Virus record (IMG/VR): IMGVR_UViG_3300044691_000274
Location: 1 to 64,000 of that record
Reading direction: 5' to 3' (one strand)
DNA: 64,000 nt
Origin: a virus
Both the position numbers and the translations under genes were made by a program. Position 1 is the stretch's first letter; each line of letters opens with the position of its first letter. Positions 642 through 30,963 of the stretch are shown here, one piece after another. The notes under the pieces are model-generated. The model searched no databases and had not been told where the DNA came from. It worked only from the letters and a program-made list of their open reading frames with translations.

Positions 642-772
642 ATGCAGTTGACTGCACCTGTGGCCTAGTGGTATCAGTAGGTCTGCACTAGGTTTTGGCA
701 CTTCTTTAAGGTGTCAGGTGGTCAAGGAGGACTGCCTAAAACCGGATCGCATCAATTTCCGGGGGCTAAACG

Positions 773-3733: not shown

Positions 3734-3809
3734 TGCCGAGTAGCTCAGTTGGTAGAGCGCCTGACTGTTAATCAGGATGTCGCTGGTTCGAGCCCAGCCT
3801 TGGCAGCCA
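3734..3809 (+). tRNA. trnN: tRNA-Asn(GTT)
   Basis: 76-nt cloverleaf: acceptor TGCCGAG/CTTGGCA, D-arm GCTC-AGTTGGTA-GAGC, anticodon arm CCTGA-CTGTTAA-TCAGG, T-loop GGTTCGAGCC, encoded CCA. Confidence 0.97.
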
Positions 3810-8852: not shown

Positions 8853-8985
8853 CGTGCAATCATTTGCACCACTGATTAACTCCGACGGCCTCTGCCGCTT
8901 GCAAGTGATTGCAAAAAGAGCGATGGGTGGGGACGGAAGCTAAGGTAAGGGCCAACACGAGGTTGCCCTTCACGGAGTCGCTTTT

Positions 8986-11519: not shown

Positions 11520-11581
11520 GTGGGTTGCAATTAAGTGCAATCTGAGTATGGTGCGGACTGCCAGGCAACATGGAGGTTCCT

Positions 11582-13504
11582 GTGGCGTCAAAGCATATCT
11601 ACCGCATATCGGGCTCGGTCTGCGACTATAGCGAGGACCCCAAGTCCAAGGAAGCCAAGGCGCTGCTCGGCGGCAAAGGCGCTGGCCTCGTGATGATGGC
11701 CAAGGCCGGCTGCAACGTACCTCCAGCCTTCACGATCACGACCGAGGTGTGCAACGCCTACCGCGAACTGAAGCCCAGCAAGCAGCAAGTGCTCCTGGTC
11801 GACCTCATGCTGGAGGTCATGGATCACATGAAGTGGTTGACCGAGCAGTTCGGCTATACGCCGCTGGTCTCGGTCCGCTCCGGCGCCCCGGTTTCGATGC
11901 CCGGCATGATGGACACCATCCTGAACGTCGGCATGACCGAAGGCAACTTCGACAATTGGGAGAAGCGGCTCGGCAACCGCGCGGCGATCGACAGCTGGCG
12001 CCGGCTGATCCAGATGTTGGGCTCGACCGGATATGGCATCGATATGGCCAAGTTCGACGACCAGCTGGCGGCGACCAAGAAGCTCTACAAGGTCGAGTCC
12101 GACACCGACCTGACCTCCGACATGCTCGACAACGTCCTGCAGCGCTACCGCAAGGTGTTCAAGGAGGCCATGGGGTTTGAGTTCCCCGACAACGACGCGG
12201 AGGTGCAGCTTCACGTTGCCATCAAAGCAGTGTTCGACTCCTGGATGAACCCGCGCGCGATCGAGTATCGCAAGATCAACCACATCGACGAGGGCATGGG
12301 CACAGCAGTCACCGTCCAAGCGATGGTCTTCGGCAACATGGGCGACGACTGCGGGACAGGCGTGCTGTTCTCCCGCGAGCCTTCGACCGGCCAGAAGTTC
12401 ATGATGGGGGAGTTCCTGACCAACGCGCAAGGCGAGGACGTGGTCGCCGGCATACGAACGCCGATGAGCGTCGAGCGGATGCACCCTTCACTCGTCCTCG
12501 AAGACATCCCGCACCAAGATATGTGGCATGACATATACACCACCCTGCTACACCTCTGCGCCCATCTGGAGGACGCTTATATGGACATGGTCGACATCGA
12601 GTTCACCGTCCAGAAGGGCGAGCTGTTCGTCCTCCAGAGCCGCTCGGGGAAGCGCAGCGCGCGGGCAGCGTTCCAGATCGCGACCGACCTGGTGTCAGAG
12701 GGCAAGATCACAAAGGATGCCGCCCTTGGCCGCCTCACGCGCGAGCAGTTCAAGGTAGTGCGGCGCCCGACCATCGACCCAAGCTTCAAGGGGAAGCCCG
12801 ATGACATCGGCCTGCCGGCGTGCCCCGGCGTGGTCAGCGGCATCCCCGTTTTCACATCCGAGGCTGCAGTCAATTGCAAGGAGCCCTGCATCCTGGTCCG
12901 GCATGAGACCGACCCCGACGACATCGCTGGCATGGCCAAGGCGGTTGGCATCCTAACACAGACCGGCGGCGCCACGAGTCACGCAGCGGTGGTCGCGCGC
13001 GCCATGGACAAGGCTTGCGTGGTTGGTTGCACGACCCTCGACATCCCAGACATCAAGGAGCAGGTGAAAAAGCTGACGATCGACGGCTCCACCGGCCGCG
13101 TGTGGTTCGACATCGACGTCCCGGTTATCGACAGCTCGGATGAGGAGTCGGTCAAGAAGGTGACGGCCTGGTGTATGGCGAAGCAGGGAGCAATAGAGGC
13201 GAGCCCAGTCGGACTAGGCGAGGAGCAGCATCTGGTGTTCGCCGCGCACTGGTGGGGCAGCGAGATCGCGGCCGAAGCCATCCTGGCCGACATGCCCAAG
13301 ACGGCGCTGCTCGACGACCGGCACCCACGAGCCTTCGCCAGCGCGAGCGACTTCGTGGTGCAGCATTGCTTCGGCGAGGTGGAGAGCGCTGGGTTCTTCC
13401 CGGTCCTCAAGAAGCTGGCGAAGGAGCACAAAGTGAAGTTCGCGCCAGTCCTTGGCAATGCCTGCCCAGGAGAATATGCGGTCTTTCAAACGCTGACGAG
13501 TTAG
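11582..13504 (+). CDS. ppdK: PPDK-family dikinase: ATP-grasp plus phospho-His swivel domains, lacking the C-terminal PEP/pyruvate barrel
   Basis: LLGGKGAGL, PLVSVRSGAPVSMPGMMDTILN, VQAMVFGN, NAQGEDVVAGIRTP, DIEFT..LQSRSGKR, GGATSHAAVVAR; about 640 aa, no CGEH motif; GGAGG before GTG 11582. Confidence 0.88.
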   Translation: MASKHIYRISGSVCDYSEDPKSKEAKALLGGKGAGLVMMAKAGCNVPPAFTITTEVCNAYRELKPSKQQVLLVDLMLEVMDHMKWLTEQFGYTPLVSVRSGAPVSMPGMMDTILNVGMTEGNFDNWEKRLGNRAAIDSWRRLIQMLGSTGYGIDMAKFDDQLAATKKLYKVESDTDLTSDMLDNVLQRYRKVFKEAMGFEFPDNDAEVQLHVAIKAVFDSWMNPRAIEYRKINHIDEGMGTAVTVQAMVFGNMGDDCGTGVLFSREPSTGQKFMMGEFLTNAQGEDVVAGIRTPMSVERMHPSLVLEDIPHQDMWHDIYTTLLHLCAHLEDAYMDMVDIEFTVQKGELFVLQSRSGKRSARAAFQIATDLVSEGKITKDAALGRLTREQFKVVRRPTIDPSFKGKPDDIGLPACPGVVSGIPVFTSEAAVNCKEPCILVRHETDPDDIAGMAKAVGILTQTGGATSHAAVVARAMDKACVVGCTTLDIPDIKEQVKKLTIDGSTGRVWFDIDVPVIDSSDEESVKKVTAWCMAKQGAIEASPVGLGEEQHLVFAAHWWGSEIAAEAILADMPKTALLDDRHPRAFASASDFVVQHCFGEVESAGFFPVLKKLAKEHKVKFAPVLGNACPGEYAVFQTLTS

Positions 13505-13510
13505 GCTATA

Positions 13511-13891
13511 GTGAAGTCAACTGCACAAATCGCGGCGATACGCGCCAGCCAAAAGGCATATCGGCTACGGAACAAGGAGGCTGTCGCCGCGCGCAAGCGA
13601 GCGTATCGTGCCACCAAACCGCCAGCCATTAAGAGGGCTTGGCAAAGGCGCAACGCCAAAGAGCCTTGGTTGGTGAACAGGTATGGGATCACGCAAGAGG
13701 AACGAGACGCGATGATCGCGGCGCAGGGCGGGCGGTGCCTGATCTGCCAAGAAGAGACGAAGCTGCACGTGGATCACTGCCACGAGACGAAAAAGGTTAG
13801 AGGCTTGTTATGCAGGGAGTGCAACACCGGCCTCGGAAAATTCAAGGAACGGGTCGACCTCTTGGAGAGAGCGATCCACTACTTAGCGTAA
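13511..13891 (+). CDS. Endonuclease VII-like homing endonuclease
   Basis: RYGIT..QGGRCLIC..LHVDHCH....VRGLLC..CNTGLG. Confidence 0.88.
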   Translation: MKSTAQIAAIRASQKAYRLRNKEAVAARKRAYRATKPPAIKRAWQRRNAKEPWLVNRYGITQEERDAMIAAQGGRCLICQEETKLHVDHCHETKKVRGLLCRECNTGLGKFKERVDLLERAIHYLA

Positions 13892-13907
13892 CTACACGGA
13901 GGCCGTC

Positions 13908-14189
13908 ATGCCCTTAGTTCTTCGCTTAAAGTCAGGGCAGGATTTCTTCGTCAAGGGCGTCCAGATCGTGGTCGACAAGCTCCACGGCGACGCGAAGTTC
14001 GACCTCAAGGTCCCGTCAACCGGCCGAGTCTATTCGATCGACGAAGACGCGGCGACGGAAATGCGGGAAGTCGAGGACGTCTTCCTATCGTCCGGCGGCC
14101 GAGTCCAAGCAGGCATCGCCAAGGTGATGATCGACGCACCCCGCTCGATCGACATCCAGCGCGGGGAAAACGTACGAGGGCACAAGTGA
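13908..14189 (+). CDS. CsrA/RsmA-like RNA-binding protein (extended, 93 aa)
   Basis: N-terminal LVLRLKSGQDFFV and C-terminal AKVMIDAPRSIDIQRGE parallel CsrA LILTRRVGE..I and VRIGVNAPKEVSVHREE. Confidence 0.6.
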   Translation: MPLVLRLKSGQDFFVKGVQIVVDKLHGDAKFDLKVPSTGRVYSIDEDAATEMREVEDVFLSSGGRVQAGIAKVMIDAPRSIDIQRGENVRGHK

Positions 14190-14389
14190 GCTTCCGGCTA
14201 TACGAGATCACAGAGGAGGTCGTCATCCAGGCCAAGCACCTGGGACTCTTCGGCGACACGAAGAAGAGGCTGCAGCGCGCGGCGCGCCGGAGCGTTCCTT
14301 ATACGAGTGACCTCGGCAATCGCCGCTTCCTAGATTTTGCATTGACCATCACTGACGATGTGGTGGTGAACATCGAGCGCATCCACTGA
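14186..14389 (+). CDS. Small hypothetical protein
   Basis: GTGA overlap with the CsrA-like gene. Confidence 0.55.
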   Translation: MSFRLYEITEEVVIQAKHLGLFGDTKKRLQRAARRSVPYTSDLGNRRFLDFALTITDDVVVNIERIH

Positions 14390-14457
14390 TTTGGTGGTTG
14401 CAATTGATTGCAATTCGGTTATCGTCCACGCAGGCACCCAAACAGGAGGTTCGGGTC

Positions 14458-15006
14458 ATGAACAAGCCGATCCACGTACACGACTTTTCCAAGGGGACGC
14501 CTCCGCCAGGCGCCAACGGCACGATGCCGATCAAGATGGGCTTCAAGGGAGGCTACCTCTCGATCGAGATCATCGGCGGCCCGTTCGACAACTATCGCCC
14601 AGGCGAGAACGGCGACATCGGCATCTGCGTCCGCGCCGAGCGCGTTCCTGCGACCGCCAACATATGGGTGCCCATTCGTGACTTCGACGTCCCGAAGACG
14701 AAGGACTTGGCTCAAGTCGAGCATGCCCTGGAGTGGGCCATCGCGTCGGCGCTGGACGGCAAGCGGGTCTACGTGGGCTGCCAAGGCGGCTGGGGCCGCA
14801 CAGGGCTGTTCCTGGCGCTCATCGCCAAGGTCTGCGGGCTCAAGGACCCGGTCGACTATGTCCGGCACACGTACACGCCGCGCGCGGTCGAAACGAAGGA
14901 GCAGCAGGCATACGTCGACGACTTCGATGTGACCCAGCTGCAGCGCGACCTGCTCTACCGCGCCTGGGGCATCCGTTGGGCGCGCCTTTGGTTCTGGTGG
15001 ACGTGA
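14458..15006 (+). CDS. Cys-based (CX5R) tyrosine/dual-specificity-type phosphatase 1
   Basis: PIRDFDVP acid loop, P-loop YVGCQGGWGRTG, AVET.EQ loop; AGGAGG upstream. Confidence 0.85.
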   Translation: MNKPIHVHDFSKGTPPPGANGTMPIKMGFKGGYLSIEIIGGPFDNYRPGENGDIGICVRAERVPATANIWVPIRDFDVPKTKDLAQVEHALEWAIASALDGKRVYVGCQGGWGRTGLFLALIAKVCGLKDPVDYVRHTYTPRAVETKEQQAYVDDFDVTQLQRDLLYRAWGIRWARLWFWWT

Positions 15007-15233
15007 TGCGGGTCAAGGAACTGATAGCCTTACTCGCAAAGGCTGACCCAGAGACGTTTGTCGTTCTCGATGAAAGCGAGTTGCTCGTGCTTGTGAGCGA
15101 CGTGGAATACATCCTCCCGTACAAGCAGGGGAGCGTTATTCCGAAGGCCGTTATTCTCAGAGCACGCCTCTACAGTCCAAAAACCGTGCTTGGGTGGACT
15201 CCCATCGACCCGGCTGCGCGGTCCTCGATTTGA
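15006..15233 (+). CDS. Small hypothetical protein
   Basis: TGATG overlap; MRVKELIALL start resembles the MTVAQL ORFs. Confidence 0.5.
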   Translation: MRVKELIALLAKADPETFVVLDESELLVLVSDVEYILPYKQGSVIPKAVILRARLYSPKTVLGWTPIDPAARSSI

Positions 15234-15296
15234 CTTGCAAGTAATTGCACGCGGAGCTATGACTCCGGGTGACACTAGGGCCAACAGGAGGTTGCC

Positions 15297-16367
15297 TTGG
15301 CGATAACCGATCCGCAAGACACTCTCGCCTACCACGCCTCGCGCGTGTTCTGCCAACAGCGGGACATGTCCGAGGTGTCGTGCGAGCAGGTCGCCAAGGT
15401 GGTTGCCGAGTTCAAGAGCAGCGATCCAAAGCCCAACACCGTGCCGGAGACCGACGCGCTCTGGTTCTATGGGATGAACCACGGTGTGGCGCTGATCGCC
15501 CAGCATCGCGCGCCGCTTGAGCCGCTCGATCCCTGGGAGCTGAGCTTCGTCCAGAAATACCACGAGTACATGGGGCCGAAGGCGGTCCGCGCGTTCTACT
15601 ATCTCATCTGGATTTGCATCCGCGAGGCGCGACACAACAAGTCGCTGACCGCCGACCTGCCGAAGATCGAGAAGCTGTTCGGCGAGAAGATGGCAGCCTT
15701 CATGAACGGCGCCGGCGGAGAGGACGGCATCTCGAAGCGCTTCCTCGACAACCCGCCTCCGATGACCATCGGAAACTTCGTCAAGGCGATAGCCTGGCAG
15801 TTCGACAACAGCACTTGGCACAAAGGTTATGGCGGCAAGAAGTGGGGCGTCGTGACCGATTGCCTCGTACGCTTCTGCACCGGCGAGTATAGTGCCGAAG
15901 TAATGTTGGATCAAGTCTGGACATTGGCACATAACGGGGGTCCCATCTTCAACAAGGGATTTTGTTATGACCATTACGACTCGATTGTACTCTATCGAAT
16001 ACTTGACGTTCAACGCTCTGGCCAGGTGCCGGAAGCTTGCCTGTTCGACGTGGACTGCAAACAATACGCTGCACTCGACCTGATCGCCCTCATGAAGGAC
16101 GTCAAGGACCGCTATCCCGTTATCGGCGACTATGTCGACTGGATCAAGGTCGAGGCGCTCGGGGCCGTCAAGACGTATGAGGCAGACATCGAGAACCAGA
16201 GCAAGACCCCGGAGCAGAAGGCGGCCGAGGCCGAGCTAGTCGCCAAGAAAAAGGCGCTGGCAGCGGCGGCGCAGCAAGCCATCTGGGAGAAGAAGAACAA
16301 GCAGGCCAAAGACTGGTTCCAGGTTATGCCTGGGCTCGAAGTCAAGAAAATCGTGAGGGCAGCATAG
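15297..16367 (+). CDS. Phage protein of unknown function with enzyme-like motifs
   Basis: AGGAGG upstream, TTG start; REARH, GYGG..W, D..W.LAHNGGPIFNKG motifs. Confidence 0.7.
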   Translation: MAITDPQDTLAYHASRVFCQQRDMSEVSCEQVAKVVAEFKSSDPKPNTVPETDALWFYGMNHGVALIAQHRAPLEPLDPWELSFVQKYHEYMGPKAVRAFYYLIWICIREARHNKSLTADLPKIEKLFGEKMAAFMNGAGGEDGISKRFLDNPPPMTIGNFVKAIAWQFDNSTWHKGYGGKKWGVVTDCLVRFCTGEYSAEVMLDQVWTLAHNGGPIFNKGFCYDHYDSIVLYRILDVQRSGQVPEACLFDVDCKQYAALDLIALMKDVKDRYPVIGDYVDWIKVEALGAVKTYEADIENQSKTPEQKAAEAELVAKKKALAAAAQQAIWEKKNKQAKDWFQVMPGLEVKKIVRAA

Positions 16368-16369
16368 TC

Positions 16370-17152
16370 ATGGGCAAGGGTCTAAACGACGCGATCCACG
16401 GCGACCGGGCGAAAATTCGGGGATACACTCCGCCGAAGGAGAAGACCTGGGACGAGTGGCTCAACTCGAAGAACGATCCCAAGCCGTCCGCCGGCTTCGC
16501 GGGCGATTATTTCAAGGGGGCCACGTCCTACGCCAACGACGCGAAAGGCGCGAAGGCGGGCTACGTCTCCTGCTATCACTCGCACCCGCCGCTCAAGCTG
16601 CCTGGCACTGAGCTGGTGATCTACGGCGGCTCCTGCAGCAGCCCGGTCGTCAAGGACGCCGACATCTACATCAGGTTCGACGCCGGCATGCTGCCAAGCA
16701 ACAACGAGACCAAGTTCCTGCCGGACCGCAAAGACATTTTCTACCGCATCTCCGACATGCGACCGCCGACCAACCCCAAGACGTTCGCCCAGCTCGTCGA
16801 CTGGACGGGCCAGCAGCTGGCGGACGGGAAGAAGGTCCACTGCGGCTGCATCGGCGGCCACGGCCGCACAGGGACGTTCCTAGCGGCCCTCGTCTCCCGC
16901 TTCGGCGAGTCGGACGCGATCGCCTACGTCCGGAAGAATTACTGCAAGAAGGTGGTCGAGAGCAGCGACCAGGTGAAGTTCCTCGGCGCGCACTTCGGAG
17001 TCAAGGCCGCCGCGCACACCAAGGAGTATGAGACCAAGCCCAAGAAAGCAGCCACCAAGTTCCTGACCTACTCGTCTGGGACAAAACAGTCGCAGGGCCG
17101 CGAGCCGATCAAGTTTACGAACGTTAGCGGCAACGGTTGCATCTGGGGATAG
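16370..17152 (+). CDS. Cys-based (CX5R) phosphatase 2
   Basis: ISDMRPP acid loop, P-loop VHCGCIGGHGRTG, YVRKNYC...VES..Q. Confidence 0.85.
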   Translation: MGKGLNDAIHGDRAKIRGYTPPKEKTWDEWLNSKNDPKPSAGFAGDYFKGATSYANDAKGAKAGYVSCYHSHPPLKLPGTELVIYGGSCSSPVVKDADIYIRFDAGMLPSNNETKFLPDRKDIFYRISDMRPPTNPKTFAQLVDWTGQQLADGKKVHCGCIGGHGRTGTFLAALVSRFGESDAIAYVRKNYCKKVVESSDQVKFLGAHFGVKAAAHTKEYETKPKKAATKFLTYSSGTKQSQGREPIKFTNVSGNGCIWG

Positions 17153-17243
17153 TTAACCTCTTCTTGGCCTTACTGTCGATGTCGCTGGACACACTACGGC
17201 GAACGAGTGATGGTGGGCCGGCCAACTAATCAAGGAGGATCAG

Positions 17244-18242
17244 GTGGCGTCTATACAATTAAAGGCTGCTGCGTTCAACGGCACTTCGTTCATGAAGGCC
17301 GTCGGCGTGGACGCCAAGGTGTTGGAACAGCTCAAATCTTTGGGCTGGGCAGTGCAAATGACTGCAAAAAAGCTCGTGCTTGCCAAAGAGGGCAGCGAGA
17401 TATCGACCCCGATCACGTCTGAGATGATCCACAAGGCGTATTCCGGGGAGCTGATGAACCATCCAATAATGCTGTCGGCGCTGGAGAACCTCGCGATGGA
17501 GGCGATCAACATCGTCGGCTTTGCCATTCCCAAGAATAAGGTCTCCTCTCTCAAGTTTGAAGACGTCTTCGATCAGTCGGGTGTGCTGGAGGCAGCCAAG
17601 CTGGGGCCGGCAACCGAGCAGCTGCTGAAGGCGGCAACAGCCGCTCCGCCGGCAACCACGCAGATGGTCAAGCAATTCTTCGCAGCGAACCTCGGGCTGC
17701 CGCAGTCCATCCTCATCAATAGCTACGCCAAAAAATTCGGGGTGTCTGCCTTCATCGCAGCCGACGCGGTGCAGACTTGGTTGAACGGGCACGCAACTGT
17801 GGTCGCCACCGGAGGCCCATCGTCCACCTTCGTCGTCGTCAACAGCGGATCATTTCCGACGTTCGACCTCGCCAAGATGGAGACCTCTCCGCCGGTCAAG
17901 CTCCGCGACGCGAACATGATGTACCAACCGGTCAAAGGTTCGTCAGATGGATCGCGCTATTTCATGATCGCTGCCAACAAAGACGTGCGCATCGCCGCGC
18001 GCTTTAAGGCGGACAAGCTCGGCATCCGGATCGAGGGGCCGAACTGGAAGAAACATCTCTCCGGGATCACGCAGCTCGGCATCGTGCAAGACTCCGGCGG
18101 CAAGGATTACGCCAGCCTGCACCTCGAAATACACGACATAGTGGTGGCCAAGAAGACCATGGGAGCCATCCTGATGGGCCTGAGCCTGCCGCTGGATACC
18201 CCGATGCCAAACATGGAAGTCATCTACGGGAAGGGAAGCTGA
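17244..18242 (+). CDS. Hypothetical protein
   Basis: AAGGAGG upstream; 332-aa ORF. Confidence 0.7.
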   Translation: MASIQLKAAAFNGTSFMKAVGVDAKVLEQLKSLGWAVQMTAKKLVLAKEGSEISTPITSEMIHKAYSGELMNHPIMLSALENLAMEAINIVGFAIPKNKVSSLKFEDVFDQSGVLEAAKLGPATEQLLKAATAAPPATTQMVKQFFAANLGLPQSILINSYAKKFGVSAFIAADAVQTWLNGHATVVATGGPSSTFVVVNSGSFPTFDLAKMETSPPVKLRDANMMYQPVKGSSDGSRYFMIAANKDVRIAARFKADKLGIRIEGPNWKKHLSGITQLGIVQDSGGKDYASLHLEIHDIVVAKKTMGAILMGLSLPLDTPMPNMEVIYGKGS

Positions 18243-21790: not shown

Positions 21791-21911
21791 CCTGTACGGT
21801 CATGCAATCAACTGCACTGACTCCCGGCTTGCCGGACCAGCAGTGCAGCGTCCGTAGGCGACGCAGTATGTGCAATTGATTGCAAACGCTGCTGAGCCGG
21901 TGGAGGTTCGC

Positions 21912-23909
21912 ATGGTCGATCAAGTCGTCAAGGACGGCGAGAAGCCTGTTCAGCAAGTGCTGCGCTTGGTTGTGCCCAACGCTGGCATCCGCACGGACTT
22001 GGCCGGCCTACGCAAGGACCTCGGACCGCATGGTGGCAACACCAAAGGCAAGGACGGCACGGACGCCATCCAGGACAACGTCTTCGAGCCGGAAGACGAA
22101 TATCAGCAGCTCTACGTCGGCGCGACGCGCGACCAGGGCGTGATCCAGCCCCCGTACAATCCCCGCCAGCTCGACTATCTGAGCCAGCAGAACAACACGC
22201 TCGGCCCCTGCATCGAGGCGATGGTCACGAACGTCGACGGGACCGGCTACGACTTCGTCTCGGAAGACACCGACGAGGACGACGCCCAGGACGACCCGAA
22301 GGTCGACGAGCTAGAAGAGTTCTTCGCTCAGCCGTGGCCCGACATGTCCTTCCTGGAGATGCGCAAAATCCTGCGGCGCGACGAGGAGCGCACCGGCAAC
22401 GCCTATATCGAAGTCCTGCGGAACGCCCAAGACGAAGTCGTCATGTTCCGGCACATCGACGCGAAGATGATGCGGATGCTGCGCCTCGACGACGCCATCC
22501 CGGTAGACAAGACCGTGAACCGACAGGGCAAAGACATCACGCTCAAAGTCATGTCCCGAGAGCGCCGTTATTGCCAGCTCGTCAACGGCGTAACCCTGAT
22601 GTATTTCAAGGAGTTCGGCGCTTGCCGGGACCTCCATAAGAAGACGGCTGTGTGGTCGCCCCAAGGCCAGCGCCTGCCGGCGGCGCAGCGCGCGACCGAG
22701 GTCATTCACTTCACGCTGATCCCCGACGCGCACACGCCTTACGGCATCCCGCGCTGGATCATGCAGACCCCGTCCATCCTCGGCTCGCGCCAGGCGGAAG
22801 AGTTCAACCTTGAGTTTTTCAAGAGCGGCGGCATCCCGCCGGTGATGGTCATCCTGCAGGGGGGCACGCTCCAGGCCAAGACCCGCCAGGCGATCGAGAA
22901 CATGAACGCGGGCGACGCCTCGAAGAAGAACCGGATGCAGGTGCTCGAAGTCGAGCCCACGGCAGGCAGCCTGGACAAGGCAGGCGTAGCCAAGGTGACG
23001 GTCGAGCGCTTCGGGTCGGATCGCCAGAAGGACTCGATGTTCGAGGAATACGACGCCAAGTGCGAGGAGCGCGTCCGCCGCGCCTTCCGCCTGCCGCCGA
23101 TGTTCCTGGGGCAGTCCAAGGATTACAATTTCGCGACAGCCTTCGCCTCGTACACGGTGGCCGAGGCCCAGGTGTTCAAGCCGGAGCGCGAGGCGTTCGA
23201 CATGGTCATCTCGATGAAGCTCCTGCCCGCCATGGGCTACGAGGGCTATAAGATGCGGTCGAAGAAGTTGGTCATCGAAGACGCGACCCTGAAGCTGCAA
23301 GGCATGGAGGTGATCATGGCCATGGGCGACCAGGTGGAGCCAGGCGACGTGGTCAAGGCGGTCAACGACATCACCGGCACCACGCTCAAGGTCTCCGACA
23401 ACGCCCCCGACCTCGCCGCCAAGCAACAGCAGCAGGTCCAGCAGACGATGATGCAGCACCAGATCGGCATGGCGCAAGCGAACGCTGGCGCGGGCGCCGC
23501 GAACAAGGGAGCGATCAAGCCGATCAACCCCCAGCCCAAGTCTCCGACAGGTCTCCCCGTACCAGGCAGTATTAGGGCCAACGGCGGCAACCCAGGCGCC
23601 ATCAAGCCGAAGCAGTTGCCAGGCGTCATGGGAGGCGCCGGAACGCCTGTGGCCGCGCCTACGCGCAAGACCGACATGACGATCCCGGAGTTCGCCATGC
23701 ACGCCGTCAAGGCTCTGCGCAAGCGCGACCTTATCGAACTGGCTTGGGTCCTCCCGATCATCGGCGGCCTCGACGAGGACAGCCGGGCTCAGTTCGACGC
23801 GGCGACCGCCGACTTGGCGTTCGTCGACACCACCTACGATCCGGCGGGTCTCGCAGCCCTCGCCAGCGCGACGATGGACGTCATGGCCGGCTGCGGCCAC
23901 AGCCACTGA
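21912..23909 (+). CDS. Portal protein (PBSX/XkdE-like) with Gln/Pro/Gly-rich extension
   Basis: D.ERTGNAYIEV.RN, EVIHF, YGIPRW, N.EFF..GGIP, AFRLPPMFLG, NFATA; GGAGG upstream. Confidence 0.9.
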   Translation: MVDQVVKDGEKPVQQVLRLVVPNAGIRTDLAGLRKDLGPHGGNTKGKDGTDAIQDNVFEPEDEYQQLYVGATRDQGVIQPPYNPRQLDYLSQQNNTLGPCIEAMVTNVDGTGYDFVSEDTDEDDAQDDPKVDELEEFFAQPWPDMSFLEMRKILRRDEERTGNAYIEVLRNAQDEVVMFRHIDAKMMRMLRLDDAIPVDKTVNRQGKDITLKVMSRERRYCQLVNGVTLMYFKEFGACRDLHKKTAVWSPQGQRLPAAQRATEVIHFTLIPDAHTPYGIPRWIMQTPSILGSRQAEEFNLEFFKSGGIPPVMVILQGGTLQAKTRQAIENMNAGDASKKNRMQVLEVEPTAGSLDKAGVAKVTVERFGSDRQKDSMFEEYDAKCEERVRRAFRLPPMFLGQSKDYNFATAFASYTVAEAQVFKPEREAFDMVISMKLLPAMGYEGYKMRSKKLVIEDATLKLQGMEVIMAMGDQVEPGDVVKAVNDITGTTLKVSDNAPDLAAKQQQQVQQTMMQHQIGMAQANAGAGAANKGAIKPINPQPKSPTGLPVPGSIRANGGNPGAIKPKQLPGVMGGAGTPVAAPTRKTDMTIPEFAMHAVKALRKRDLIELAWVLPIIGGLDEDSRAQFDAATADLAFVDTTYDPAGLAALASATMDVMAGCGHSH

Positions 23910-30881: not shown

Positions 30882-30963
30882 TTGCATTTGACGAGTGGTG
30901 TAGGGTCCGTAAATGGGCCTGCCCCTTTTTCGTCAGGGGCCGCTCTCGACAAAGGAGTGTCGC

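What the first reader, a model, noticed from the sequence alone, without database searches (positions are those of the whole stretch)
11562..17248. GGA-loop hairpins over ribosome-binding sites match the neighbouring CsrA-like protein: a self-contained phage translational regulon
Seen: the Shine-Dalgarno sits in a hairpin loop before the dikinase (CAGG-C-AAC-ATGGAG-GTT-CCTG, 11562-11582), phosphatase 1 (ACCC-A-AAC-AGGAG-GTT-C-GGGT, 14436-14456), the 356-aa gene (GG-C-CAAC-AGGAG-GTTG-CC, 15279-15296) and the 332-aa gene (CT-A-ATC-AAGGAG-GAT-C-AG within 17221-17248). The same geometry occurs at 716-737, 30947-30962, 59851-59870 and 61279-61292. The CsrA-like gene itself has ACACGGAGG (13894-13902). 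Stems differ in sequence but keep pairing, and most lie about 20-60 nt downstream of a TGCA box. Known: CsrA/RsmA binds (A/U)CANGGANG(U/A) with GGA in a short loop and blocks translation. Inference: two-tier control, with a DNA box plus phage CsrA, timing these genes. Caveat: any SD contains GGA, so the evidence is the stem geometry.
Basis: partly seen in the sequence, partly recalled or inferred. Interest (0 to 1): 0.78.

Follow-up and report, generated by a model that had tools for sequence, protein, structure and literature searches.

The report
Phage CsrA-like protein with ribosome-site hairpins
A 103-kb uncultured phage and its relatives place the ribosome-binding site of many first-in-transcript genes in the loop of a small covarying RNA hairpin shaped like the best-known CsrA docking site, and all encode a divergent CsrA-like protein, so the phage probably controls its own translation, though binding is untested.

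Summary
The hairpins are real at the stated coordinates. They are not unusually stable: shuffles and non-RBS GGAG sites fold about as well. The evidence is geometry and covariation.

The genome has 11 copies of a core AAC-(N)GGAG-GTT, five of them in the window. Their outer stems differ but stay complementary (permutation p about 1.5e-4). Nine of the 11 lie 41-67 nt downstream of a TGCA-N6-TGCA box.

Across 20 related loci (Rhodobacter, Rhizobium, Stenotrophomonas and Vibrio phages, IMG/VR contigs), 39% of RBS GGAG sites have a stem of 3 bp or more closing a 5-6-nt loop. The figure is 10% at non-RBS sites and 11% in two phages without the gene. That loop, ANGGAX on a short stem, is the published high-affinity CsrA/RsmE site.

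The 93-aa protein is a true but divergent CsrA relative. It keeps the residues equivalent to L4 and R44 and carries a 40-residue insertion. It is conserved throughout the clade.

The regulon link is the best explanation, at about 50%, but it is untested. Two hairpins lack GGA or are not at an RBS. A cis-only leader role remains possible. Earlier notes of this scan report similar circuits on other phage DNA.

The parts
13908..14189 (+). 93-aa divergent CsrA-like protein, the candidate trans-acting factor
   Evidence: Pfam CsrA scores 23.3 bits, below the cut-off of 27. 70 of 87 family members hit Pfam CsrA. The family profile hits CsrA, RsmE and RsmF/N PDB chains at E = 2e-3, through both beta1 and beta4-5/helix. 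The AF2 model has pLDDT 94.7. L3, L5, A77, P78 and R85 are conserved and correspond to CsrA L2, L4, A36, P37 and R44.
11562..11582 (+). SD-loop hairpin before the dikinase (CAGG-C-AAC / AUGGAG / GUU-CCUG); start GTG 11582
11526..11539 (.). TGCA-N6-TGCA box, 41 nt before the hairpin core. It overlaps an inferred -35 TTGCAA, followed by N16 and TATGGT.
   Evidence: The promoter is inferred from the recurring layout; the consensus scanner does not call it.
14436..14456 (+). SD-loop hairpin before phosphatase 1 (ACCC-A-AAC / AGGAG / GUU-C-GGGU); start ATG 14458
14399..14412 (.). TGCA-N6-TGCA box upstream of the phosphatase-1 leader
15276..15299 (+). SD-loop hairpin before the 356-aa gene. The extended stem CUAGGGC-C-AAC / AGGAG / GUUGCCUUGG includes the UUG start.
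   Evidence: -10.7 kcal/mol. Orthologous leaders in 15 phages fold to ((((......)))) with compensatory changes.
15236..15249 (.). TGCA-N6-TGCA box upstream of the 356-aa-gene leader
17221..17248 (+). SD-loop hairpin before the 332-aa gene (AUC / AAGGAG / GAU with outer pairs); start GTG 17244. No TGCA box within 75 nt upstream.
8945..8973 (+). Member of the same hairpin family (GGGC-C-AAC / ACGAG / GUU-GCCC). It has no GGA and does not lie on the RBS; the true SD ACGGAG lies downstream, before ATG 8986.
21890..21912 (+). SD-loop hairpin (GAGCC / GGUGGA / GGUUC) before the portal gene, ATG 21912
   Evidence: -11.2 kcal/mol
30947..30962 (+). CGACA / AAGGAG / UGUCG hairpin before GTG 30964
59851..59870 (+). 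CCG-C-AAAC / AGGAG / GUUU-CGG hairpin before GTG 59870 (46-aa ORF)
   Evidence: RNAfold prefers an alternative fold here.
61279..61292 (+). GAGC / AAGGAG / GCUC hairpin before ATG 61295, with a TGCA box at 61226. The same GAGC/AAGGAG/GCUC hairpin recurs downstream of the box at about 85.84 kb of the genome.
716..737 (+). Very stable 8-bp hairpin with an AAGGAG hexaloop. It is not adjacent to a start codon.
   Evidence: z -3.1

Best explanation
**What it is.** The phage, a 103.5-kb virus record with terminal repeats and nearly all genes on one strand, starts many transcription units with a very short leader. In that leader the Shine-Dalgarno GGAG sits in a 5-6-nt loop, A(N)GGAG, closed by a 3-10-bp stem. 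The 3' arm of the stem fills the spacer and sometimes covers the start codon.

**Proposed mechanism.** These hairpins are translational operators for the phage's own CsrA-like protein, which is encoded in the dikinase transcription unit.
1. As the protein accumulates, it docks on the GGA loop and the closing pairs through the surface made of its N-terminal strand (L3, L5) and its C-terminal strand (I81, I83, R85).
2. This competes with the 30S subunit and shuts down translation of these first-in-operon genes after an initial burst. The logic is that of T4 RegA, using CsrA chemistry.

**Shown:**
- The hairpins exist, and their pairing is under selection within the genome and across the clade.
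- The protein is homologous to CsrA and keeps the key residues.
- The loop and stem geometry equals the published high-affinity CsrA site.

**Inferred:**
- That this protein binds these RNAs.
- That the effect is repression rather than stabilisation or activation. I put repression at about 60:40.
- That the protein works as a self-complemented single chain with one RNA site, which would fit the single GGA hairpin per leader.
- The promoter and 5'-end positions.
For: **Hairpins.**
- Present, and the MFE structure in 9 of 10 leaders.
- 11 paralogous AAC..GTT hairpins have covarying outer stems, p = 1.5e-4.
- Strict-geometry enrichment at RBS: 39% against 10% at non-RBS sites, with a within-genome permutation p of 2e-4 or less.
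- Covariation on 149 unselected sites, with 0 of 500 shuffles reaching the observed score.
- Orthologous leaders show compensatory changes.
- In this genome, 11 of 43 promoter-proximal GGA-bearing RBSs have a stem of 5 bp or more on A(N)GGA(X), against 3 of 40 internal ones.

**Protein.**
- It is a CsrA relative.
- The residues equivalent to L4 and R44 are conserved in 69 and 80 of 87 family members. Their importance is stated in PMC7652899.
- The model is confident.
- The family profile hits all five cultured relatives tested and neither control phage. The controls have RBS hairpin rates of 11% (3 bp or more) and 1.6% (4 bp or more); Fisher p = 3e-5 and 1e-5.

**Match to the known site.**
- Most SELEX hairpins had 6-nt loops and 4 bp or fewer (PMC7652899).

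**Own leader.** The leader of the CsrA-like gene itself is unstructured.
Against: - No binding or expression data exist.
- Individual hairpins are no more stable than shuffles, and a permissive search shows no RBS enrichment.
- Two family members have ACGAG loops without GGA (8954, 80214). 8954 and 716-737 are not at an RBS. This points to a structure-only role for at least some copies.
- The gene and the hairpins co-occur in one lineage, so the association is essentially a single event.
- The gene always sits inside the dikinase-phosphatase module and could serve that module instead.
- Burkholderia phage CSP3 carries a different CsrA-like gene. None of the 18 starts inspected there shows such a hairpin.
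- Pfam CsrA is below the cut-off for this protein, and structural matches to CsrA, RsmF and RsmN are only moderate.
Confidence: 0.5

Rival explanations
1. Cis-only leader design. The hairpins act without a dedicated protein. As 5'-terminal stem-loops they would protect short early mRNAs from 5'-end-dependent decay. They could also present the SD in a loop, or set a fixed, attenuated initiation rate. The CsrA-like protein would act elsewhere, on host mRNAs or within the dikinase/phosphatase module.
For: - In this genome the inferred -10 elements put the transcript start 0-11 nt before the hairpin base (inference).
- The family member at 8954 keeps the structure but has neither GGA nor an RBS role. 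80214 also lacks GGA.
- 8 of the 14 genes with the strongest stems use GTG or TTG starts, and some stems cover the start codon.
- The CsrA-like gene is a fixed part of the dikinase-phosphatase module in 40 cultured phages.
Against: - In relatives such as RcZahn and L011 the hairpin is not at the inferred 5' end, yet the 3-4-bp stem on an ANGGAG loop is still conserved and covaries. Stems that short stabilise or occlude little, but they are what CsrA-type proteins prefer (PMC7652899).
- Two GC-rich phages without the gene lack the feature.
Confidence: 0.3
2. The hairpins are read by a host factor, not by the phage protein. Candidates are host CsrA/RsmA in Vibrio and Stenotrophomonas, or another host RNA-binding protein. 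This would tie phage early expression to host physiology.
For: - The loop and stem match the bacterial CsrA/RsmE consensus (PMC4005645).
- Gammaproteobacterial hosts of clade members have CsrA/RsmA (my knowledge).
- Published work treats phage CsrA homologues as manipulators of host targets (PMC8450108).
Against: - The same hairpins occur in Rhodobacter and Rhizobium phages, whose hosts generally lack chromosomal csrA (my knowledge, not tested here).
- Every clade member examined carries its own CsrA-like gene.
Confidence: 0.12
3. Chance or composition artefact. GC-rich sequence around any GGAGG easily forms small stems, and the apparent family is only a set of duplicated leader cassettes.
For: - Energy z-scores are unremarkable.
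- A permissive search shows equal rates at RBS and non-RBS sites.
- The inner AAC/GTT core is identical among paralogues, so it says nothing about pairing.
Against: - Outer stems differ and stay complementary.
- Within-genome and across-genome permutations, slid registers, non-RBS controls and control phages all reject chance.
- Many pair types occur at every stem position.
Confidence: 0.03

Closest known systems
CsrA/RsmA/RsmE repression at SD hairpins (E. coli glgC, P. fluorescens hcnA; PDB 2jpp)
   Same: - GGA sits in a 5-6-nt loop, A(N)GGAX, directly on a short stem and overlaps the SD.
- The protein shares the beta1 and beta5 motifs, including the equivalents of L4 and R44 (PMC4005645, PMC7652899).
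   Different: - The protein has 93 aa, with about 40 extra residues between the CsrA-like N-terminal strands and the C-terminal AP-x3-I-x-R-G-E strand/helix. It is modelled as a compact 8-strand monomer rather than a 61-aa swapped dimer.
- It scores below the Pfam cut-off.
- Each leader has one hairpin, not two or more GGA sites.
- No CsrB/Rsm-type sponge RNA was found.
- Regulator and targets are both on a virulent-type phage genome.
Phage- and MGE-encoded CsrA/RsmA homologues (Campa et al. 2021, PMC8450108; Vibrio phage vB_VneS_J26 ORF99, PMC12038007)
   Same: - A csrA-like gene on a phage.
- In J26 it sits next to a tyrosine phosphatase in a PPDK-encoding phage, which is the same module as here.
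   Different: - Published homologues are described as highly similar to bacterial CsrA and as tools to manipulate host targets such as CRISPR-Cas.
- I found no paper that describes operator hairpins on the phage's own leaders.
T4 RegA; MS2/Qbeta coat protein-operator
   Same: A phage-encoded protein binds the translation-initiation regions of several early phage mRNAs (RegA), or an RBS hairpin (coat protein), and shuts off translation later in infection. This comparison rests on my knowledge.
   Different: The protein folds and RNA motifs are unrelated. The similarity is one of logic only.
Promoter-early stem-loop cassettes of T4-type phages; 5' stem-loops of T7 late mRNAs and ompA
   Same: Repeated promoter-plus-hairpin units at the start of phage transcripts, and 5' stem-loops that stabilise mRNA. 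This comparison rests on my knowledge.
   Different: Those hairpins do not carry the SD in their loop and do not resemble CsrA sites.

Membership tests
CsrA/RsmA protein family (Pfam PF02599) | Score at or above the Pfam gathering cut-off (27 bits) | tested here: not met
   23.3 bits, E = 6e-5, with only residues 66-87 matched. At family level, 70 of 87 homologues match at E of 0.01 or less, best 1.7e-9.
CsrA/RsmA protein family (Pfam PF02599) | Conserved RNA-binding residues in beta1 (L2, L4) and beta5 (V40, V42, R44) | tested here: met
   The profile-to-PDB alignment maps residues 3-21 to CsrA 2-20 and residues 65-92 to CsrA 26-53. Conservation among 87 members: L3 in 86, L5 in 69, I81 in 53, I83 in 65, R85 in 80.
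CsrA/RsmA protein family (Pfam PF02599) | Fold: five beta strands plus a C-terminal helix, forming an interleaved homodimer | tested here: inconclusive
   The monomer model has 8 strands and a short helix at pLDDT 94.7. Foldseek gives RsmF (4k59) probability 0.99 with E = 0.11. VIA gives RsmN Z 4.8 (rmsd 1.7 over 49 residues) and CsrA 1vpz Z 4.2 over model residues 37-93. The oligomeric state was not modelled.
CsrA/RsmA protein family (Pfam PF02599) | Binds GGA-containing RNA | not testable with these tools
   Needs EMSA, ITC or CLIP.
High-affinity CsrA/RsmE RNA site | GGA unpaired in a hairpin loop of the form A(N)GGAX placed directly on a stem | tested here: met
   Loops found are AUGGAG, AGGAG and AAGGAG on stems. 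The clade consensus is CC-AAGGAG-GG. The definition is from PMC4005645. Exceptions are the ACGAG loops at 8954 and 80214.
High-affinity CsrA/RsmE RNA site | Overlaps the SD or start of the regulated gene | tested here: met
   The starts lie 5-10 nt after GAGG for 10 of the 11 AAC..GTT members. This is not met for 8954 and 716-737.
High-affinity CsrA/RsmE RNA site | Two or more GGA sites 10-63 nt apart, bridged by one dimer (typical of bacterial targets, PMC7652899) | tested here: not met
   By inspection of the leader sequences printed, each short leader has one hairpin and I saw no second GGA site. No dedicated search for second sites was run.
Csr/Rsm system (regulator plus sponge sRNA) | A CsrB, RsmY or RsmZ-type multi-GGA antagonist RNA | tested here: not met
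   The Rfam gathering scan of the whole genome finds only one tRNA.

The most novel reading that the evidence does not exclude
A widespread clade of phages of about 80-100 kb encodes a self-complemented, single-chain CsrA derivative with one RNA-binding face. The clade includes cultured Vibrio, Stenotrophomonas, Rhizobium and Rhodobacter phages. On this reading the protein acts as a private translational repressor of the phage's own first-in-operon genes, through single ANGGAG-loop operators, and so gives a post-transcriptional early-to-middle switch. That switch would be independent of any host Csr system and would work even in hosts that have none.
Probability: 0.35. Interest if true: 0.8.

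Novelty: new variant of a known kind. Interest (0 to 1): 0.62.

Why it matters
CsrA is one of the best-studied bacterial translational regulators. Phage copies have so far been read as tools against the host. If this divergent phage version works on the phage's own leaders, it would be a new, compact class of viral gene-timing circuit, comparable to T4 RegA. The RNA code is well defined: a 6-nt loop on 3-4 bp. It could be a natural single-site, possibly monomeric CsrA scaffold.

The idea is directly testable, because cultured members exist: RcZahn on Rhodobacter capsulatus, DLP3 and DLP5 on Stenotrophomonas, and many Vibrio phages. It also matters for annotation. The family falls below the Pfam cut-off and is labelled 'hypothetical' in most records.

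Tried and rejected
- **Permissive hairpin-energy test in the window.** No RBS enrichment. I kept this as a caveat and replaced it with a strict-geometry test.
- **Single-leader z-scores.** Not significant.
- **Consensus sigma-70 scan.** It does not call the box promoters (8 of 12 matches), so the promoters and 5' ends remain my inference.
- **Single-sequence AF2.** pLDDT 39, useless. Redone with 87 sequences.
- **The search for related loci with the single protein and with the 87-row alignment.** Both failed. An 8-row alignment worked.
- **Word-index homologue search.** It found only 2 relatives. The full HMMER search found 122.
- **Sigma-54 reading of the TGCA box.** Considered from memory and rejected: the spacing is one base short and the first element is TTGCA, not TGGCA.
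- **Lambda CII-type TTGC-N6-TTGC reading of the box.** The repeat matches from memory, but its position relative to the inferred -10 differs. Left open.
- **Independent-lineage check in Burkholderia phage CSP3.** No such hairpins at 18 starts. This is uninformative for this clade, but it shows that a csrA-like gene alone does not predict hairpins.
- **Rfam.** No Csr/Rsm sponge.
- **Literature.** I found no description of a phage-internal CsrA regulon in the held library, which is not proof of absence.

Full report
**Context.** The window is the first 64 kb of a 103,537-bp IMG/VR virus record with direct terminal repeats. It is 61% G+C. My codon-based gene caller puts 133 of 136 genes on the + strand.

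The region of the finding encodes these genes:
- a PPDK-type dikinase without a pyruvate domain (GTG 11582-13504);
- an inserted endonuclease VII gene (13511-13891);
- a 93-aa protein (13908-14189);
- a 67-aa ORF;
- a DSP/PTP-SAK phosphatase (14458-15006);
- a 356-aa protein of unknown function (15297-16367, phrog_20946);
- a second phosphatase (16370-17152);
- a 332-aa protein (17244-18242).

The same gene order occurs in Rhodobacter phage RcZahn, Rhizobium phages RHph_Y1_11 and TM16, Stenotrophomonas phages DLP3, DLP5 and Summit, and Vibrio phages. The 356-aa gene is found in 40 cultured phage records.

**Observation.** A hairpin with GGA in a 5-6-nt loop is the best local structure at eight of nine sites. 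It is the RNAfold MFE in 9 of 10 leaders.

Three details need correction. The dikinase starts at 11582. The hairpin at 716-737 lies 36 nt before the nearest start, so it is not an RBS hairpin. The ACACGGAGG before the CsrA-like gene is unstructured.

**Is it more than chance?** By stability it is not. Leader z-scores against dinucleotide shuffles run from -1.75 to +0.15. With a permissive hairpin finder, RBS and non-RBS GGAG sites look alike (33% against 32% at -5 kcal/mol or better).

The picture changes when geometry and covariation are tested:
- The whole genome holds 11 '+'-strand copies of AAC-N(1-3)-GAG-GTT. Five are in the window (8954, 11567, 14441, 15283, 59856). Ten of them sit 5-10 nt before a start codon.
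- The inner stem AAC/GTT is constant. The outer stems all differ and are all complementary: CAGG/CCTG, ACCC/GGGT, GGC/GCC, CCG/CGG, GGGC/GCCC, ATC/GAT, GGG/CCC, GGGA/TCCC and others.
- Swapping 3' flanks among sites raises the mean energy from -8.28 to -5.0 +/- 0.8 kcal/mol (p = 1.5e-4).
- A second type, N3-4 / AAGGAG / N3-4', occurs at 17230, 30951, 61283 and 724, and beyond the window.
- Gene by gene, 11 of 43 promoter-proximal GGA-bearing RBSs have a stem of 5 bp or more on A(N)GGA(X), against 3 of 40 internal ones.

**Relatives.** A HMMER search gave 122 homologues of the 93-aa protein. Fifteen IMG/VR loci encoding it were fetched. Their leaders, and those of the cultured phages, show one rule. 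The SD sits in an ANGGAG loop closed by 3-4 bp whose letters change in step. Examples are ACC..GGT, GCC..GGC, TCC..GGA, ATC..GAT, AAC..GTT, TGCC..GGCA, GGCC..GGCC and CACC..GGTG. DLP3 has CA..TG against TA..TA, and Vibrio PG28 has GTC-AGGA-GAC against GAC-AGGA-GTC.

I then took every GGAG followed by a plausible start, without selecting for structure:
- 39% have 3 or more contiguous pairs closing a 5-6-nt loop, and 25% have 4 or more. At non-RBS GGAG sites the figures are 10% and 4%. After permuting 3' arms, including within genomes only, the figure is 12% (p of 2e-4 or less).
- On 149 such sites, the count of structure pairs gives a covariation score of 0.385 against 0.186 +/- 0.017, with 0 of 500 shuffles reaching it. 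Slid registers give 0.10-0.20. All five pairs show several pair types.
- RNAalifold on 15 orthologous leaders of the 356-aa gene returns ((((......)))), with compensatory changes at all four pairs.
- Two GC-rich phages in which the family profile finds no homologue, phiKMV and 16-3, have RBS rates at background: 11% and 1.6% (Fisher p = 3e-5 and 1e-5).

**The protein.**
- Pfam CsrA is below the cut-off for this sequence (23.3 against 27 bits). However, 70 of 87 family members hit it.
- The family profile hits CsrA, RsmE and RsmF/N chains in the PDB at E = 2e-3 with two segments: residues 3-21 match CsrA 2-20, and residues 65-92 match CsrA 26-53.
- The residues that the literature names as critical, L4 and R44 (PMC7652899), correspond to L5 (69 of 87) and R85 (80 of 87). 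A77 and P78 are nearly invariant.
- With the alignment, AF2 gives a compact all-beta model at pLDDT 94.7: eight strands and a short C-terminal helix.
- Structural matches to RsmF, RsmN and CsrA are moderate. That is expected when a swapped dimer is compared with a single chain.
- The strand spacing of residues 3-44 mimics CsrA beta1-beta5. Residues 59-90 repeat the last strands and carry the AP..I.I.R.GE motif. This fits the idea of a self-complemented chain noted earlier in this scan (e1-6051986), but I could not inspect the coordinates.
- In Vibrio PG28 the homologue is fused to the downstream small ORF.

[quoted passage not shown] Omission of N is tolerated at lower affinity (PMC4005645). 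In SELEX most ligands had 6-nt loops and four or fewer contiguous pairs (PMC7652899). The clade consensus CC-AAGGAG-GG and this phage's AAC-AUGGAG-GUU and AAC-AGGAG-GUU are of this form.

Phage-borne CsrA homologues are published. They are described as close to bacterial CsrA and as acting on host targets (PMC8450108). The J26 paper annotates ORF99 as CsrA next to a tyrosine phosphatase in a PPDK phage (PMC12038007). I found no paper describing operators on the phage's own leaders. Earlier AI notes of this scan report similar 'phage CsrA plus operator hairpin' circuits on several other genomes. I treat these as leads, not evidence.

**Upstream DNA.** Nine of the 11 AAC..GTT hairpins have a strict TGCA-N6-TGCA box 41-67 nt upstream (p about 1e-10). 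The spacings fall into two classes. In one the box overlaps an inferred -35 TTGCAA. In the other it lies about 8 nt upstream of a TTGACT -35. The inferred -10 elements (gCTATnnT) put the 5' end 0-11 nt before the hairpin base. These promoters are my inference, and the consensus scanner does not call them. The box is far more general than the hairpins. There are 69 copies in 103.5 kb against 1.2 expected. Many are inside ORFs or directly before starts that lack an SD. The box also occurs in relatives.

**Interpretation.** The hairpins are selected RNA structures; I am about 90% sure of that. The best single explanation, at about 50%, is that they are operators for the phage's CsrA-like protein. 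That protein is made from the dikinase transcription unit and would feed back on the first genes of many units.

The main rival, at about 30%, is a cis-only role as a 5' stabiliser or as a way to set initiation rate. The GGA-less and non-RBS copies favour it. So does the 5'-terminal position in this genome.

A host factor is possible, at about 12%. Chance is essentially excluded.

The direction of regulation, the stoichiometry and the link to the TGCA box are all untested.

Noticed in passing
whole genome; in the window e.g. 643, 1385, 2141, 4322, 4995, 8900, 11526, 14399, 15236, 17353, 19353, 21515, 21871, 30476, 36637, 43732, 51928, 56071, 61226: A 14-16-bp box TGCA-N6-TGCA (TTGCAnnTnnnTGCAC) occurs 69 times in 103.5 kb against 1.2 expected. 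It appears in both flank orientations. Copies lie inside ORFs, at promoter-like sites, and 0-13 nt before starts that lack an SD (ATG 4337, 5017, 36661, 56099). It is also present in relatives, at 1-7 copies per 8-14-kb locus. It looks like the operator of a dimeric DNA-binding protein, or a CII-like TTGC-N6-TTGC repeat. The binder is unknown.
   Followed up: partly
window 13511-13891: An endonuclease VII gene (Pfam PF02945) with atypical codon usage sits between the dikinase and the CsrA-like gene. In RcZahn and the Rhizobium phage the CsrA-like gene follows the dikinase directly, so this looks like a mobile nuclease insertion.
   Followed up: no
window 11582-17152: A module of dikinase, CsrA-like gene, small ORF, phosphatase, 356-aa protein and phosphatase is conserved. 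The 356-aa gene, used as its marker, is present in 40 cultured phage records: 33 Vibrio, 4 Stenotrophomonas, 2 Rhizobium and RcZahn. The biochemical target of the dikinase/phosphatase pair is unknown.
   Followed up: partly
L020 9795-10268 (Vibrio phage vB_VpS_PG28): Here the CsrA-like protein has 157 aa and appears fused to the counterpart of the small downstream ORF. The record annotates it as a hypothetical protein.
   Followed up: no
window 708-745: The most stable hairpin of the set (-14.8 kcal/mol, z -3.1) shows an AAGGAG hexaloop but is not next to a start codon. It could be a decoy site, a 5' element or a processing signal.
   Followed up: no
hairpin-led genes, e.g. 11582, 15297, 17244, 30964, 59870: 8 of the 14 genes with the strongest SD-loop stems start with GTG or TTG, and in some the start codon is inside the stem. 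I did not compare this with the genome-wide start-codon usage.
   Followed up: no
window 3734-3806: One tRNA gene (Rfam RF00005, 70.7 bits). It is the only Rfam match in the whole genome.
   Followed up: no
G000 80229-80441 (L023 16229-16441): One hairpin-led gene encodes an Arc-like ribbon-helix-helix regulator (PHROGs). It is a candidate DNA-binding protein for some phage operator.
   Followed up: no
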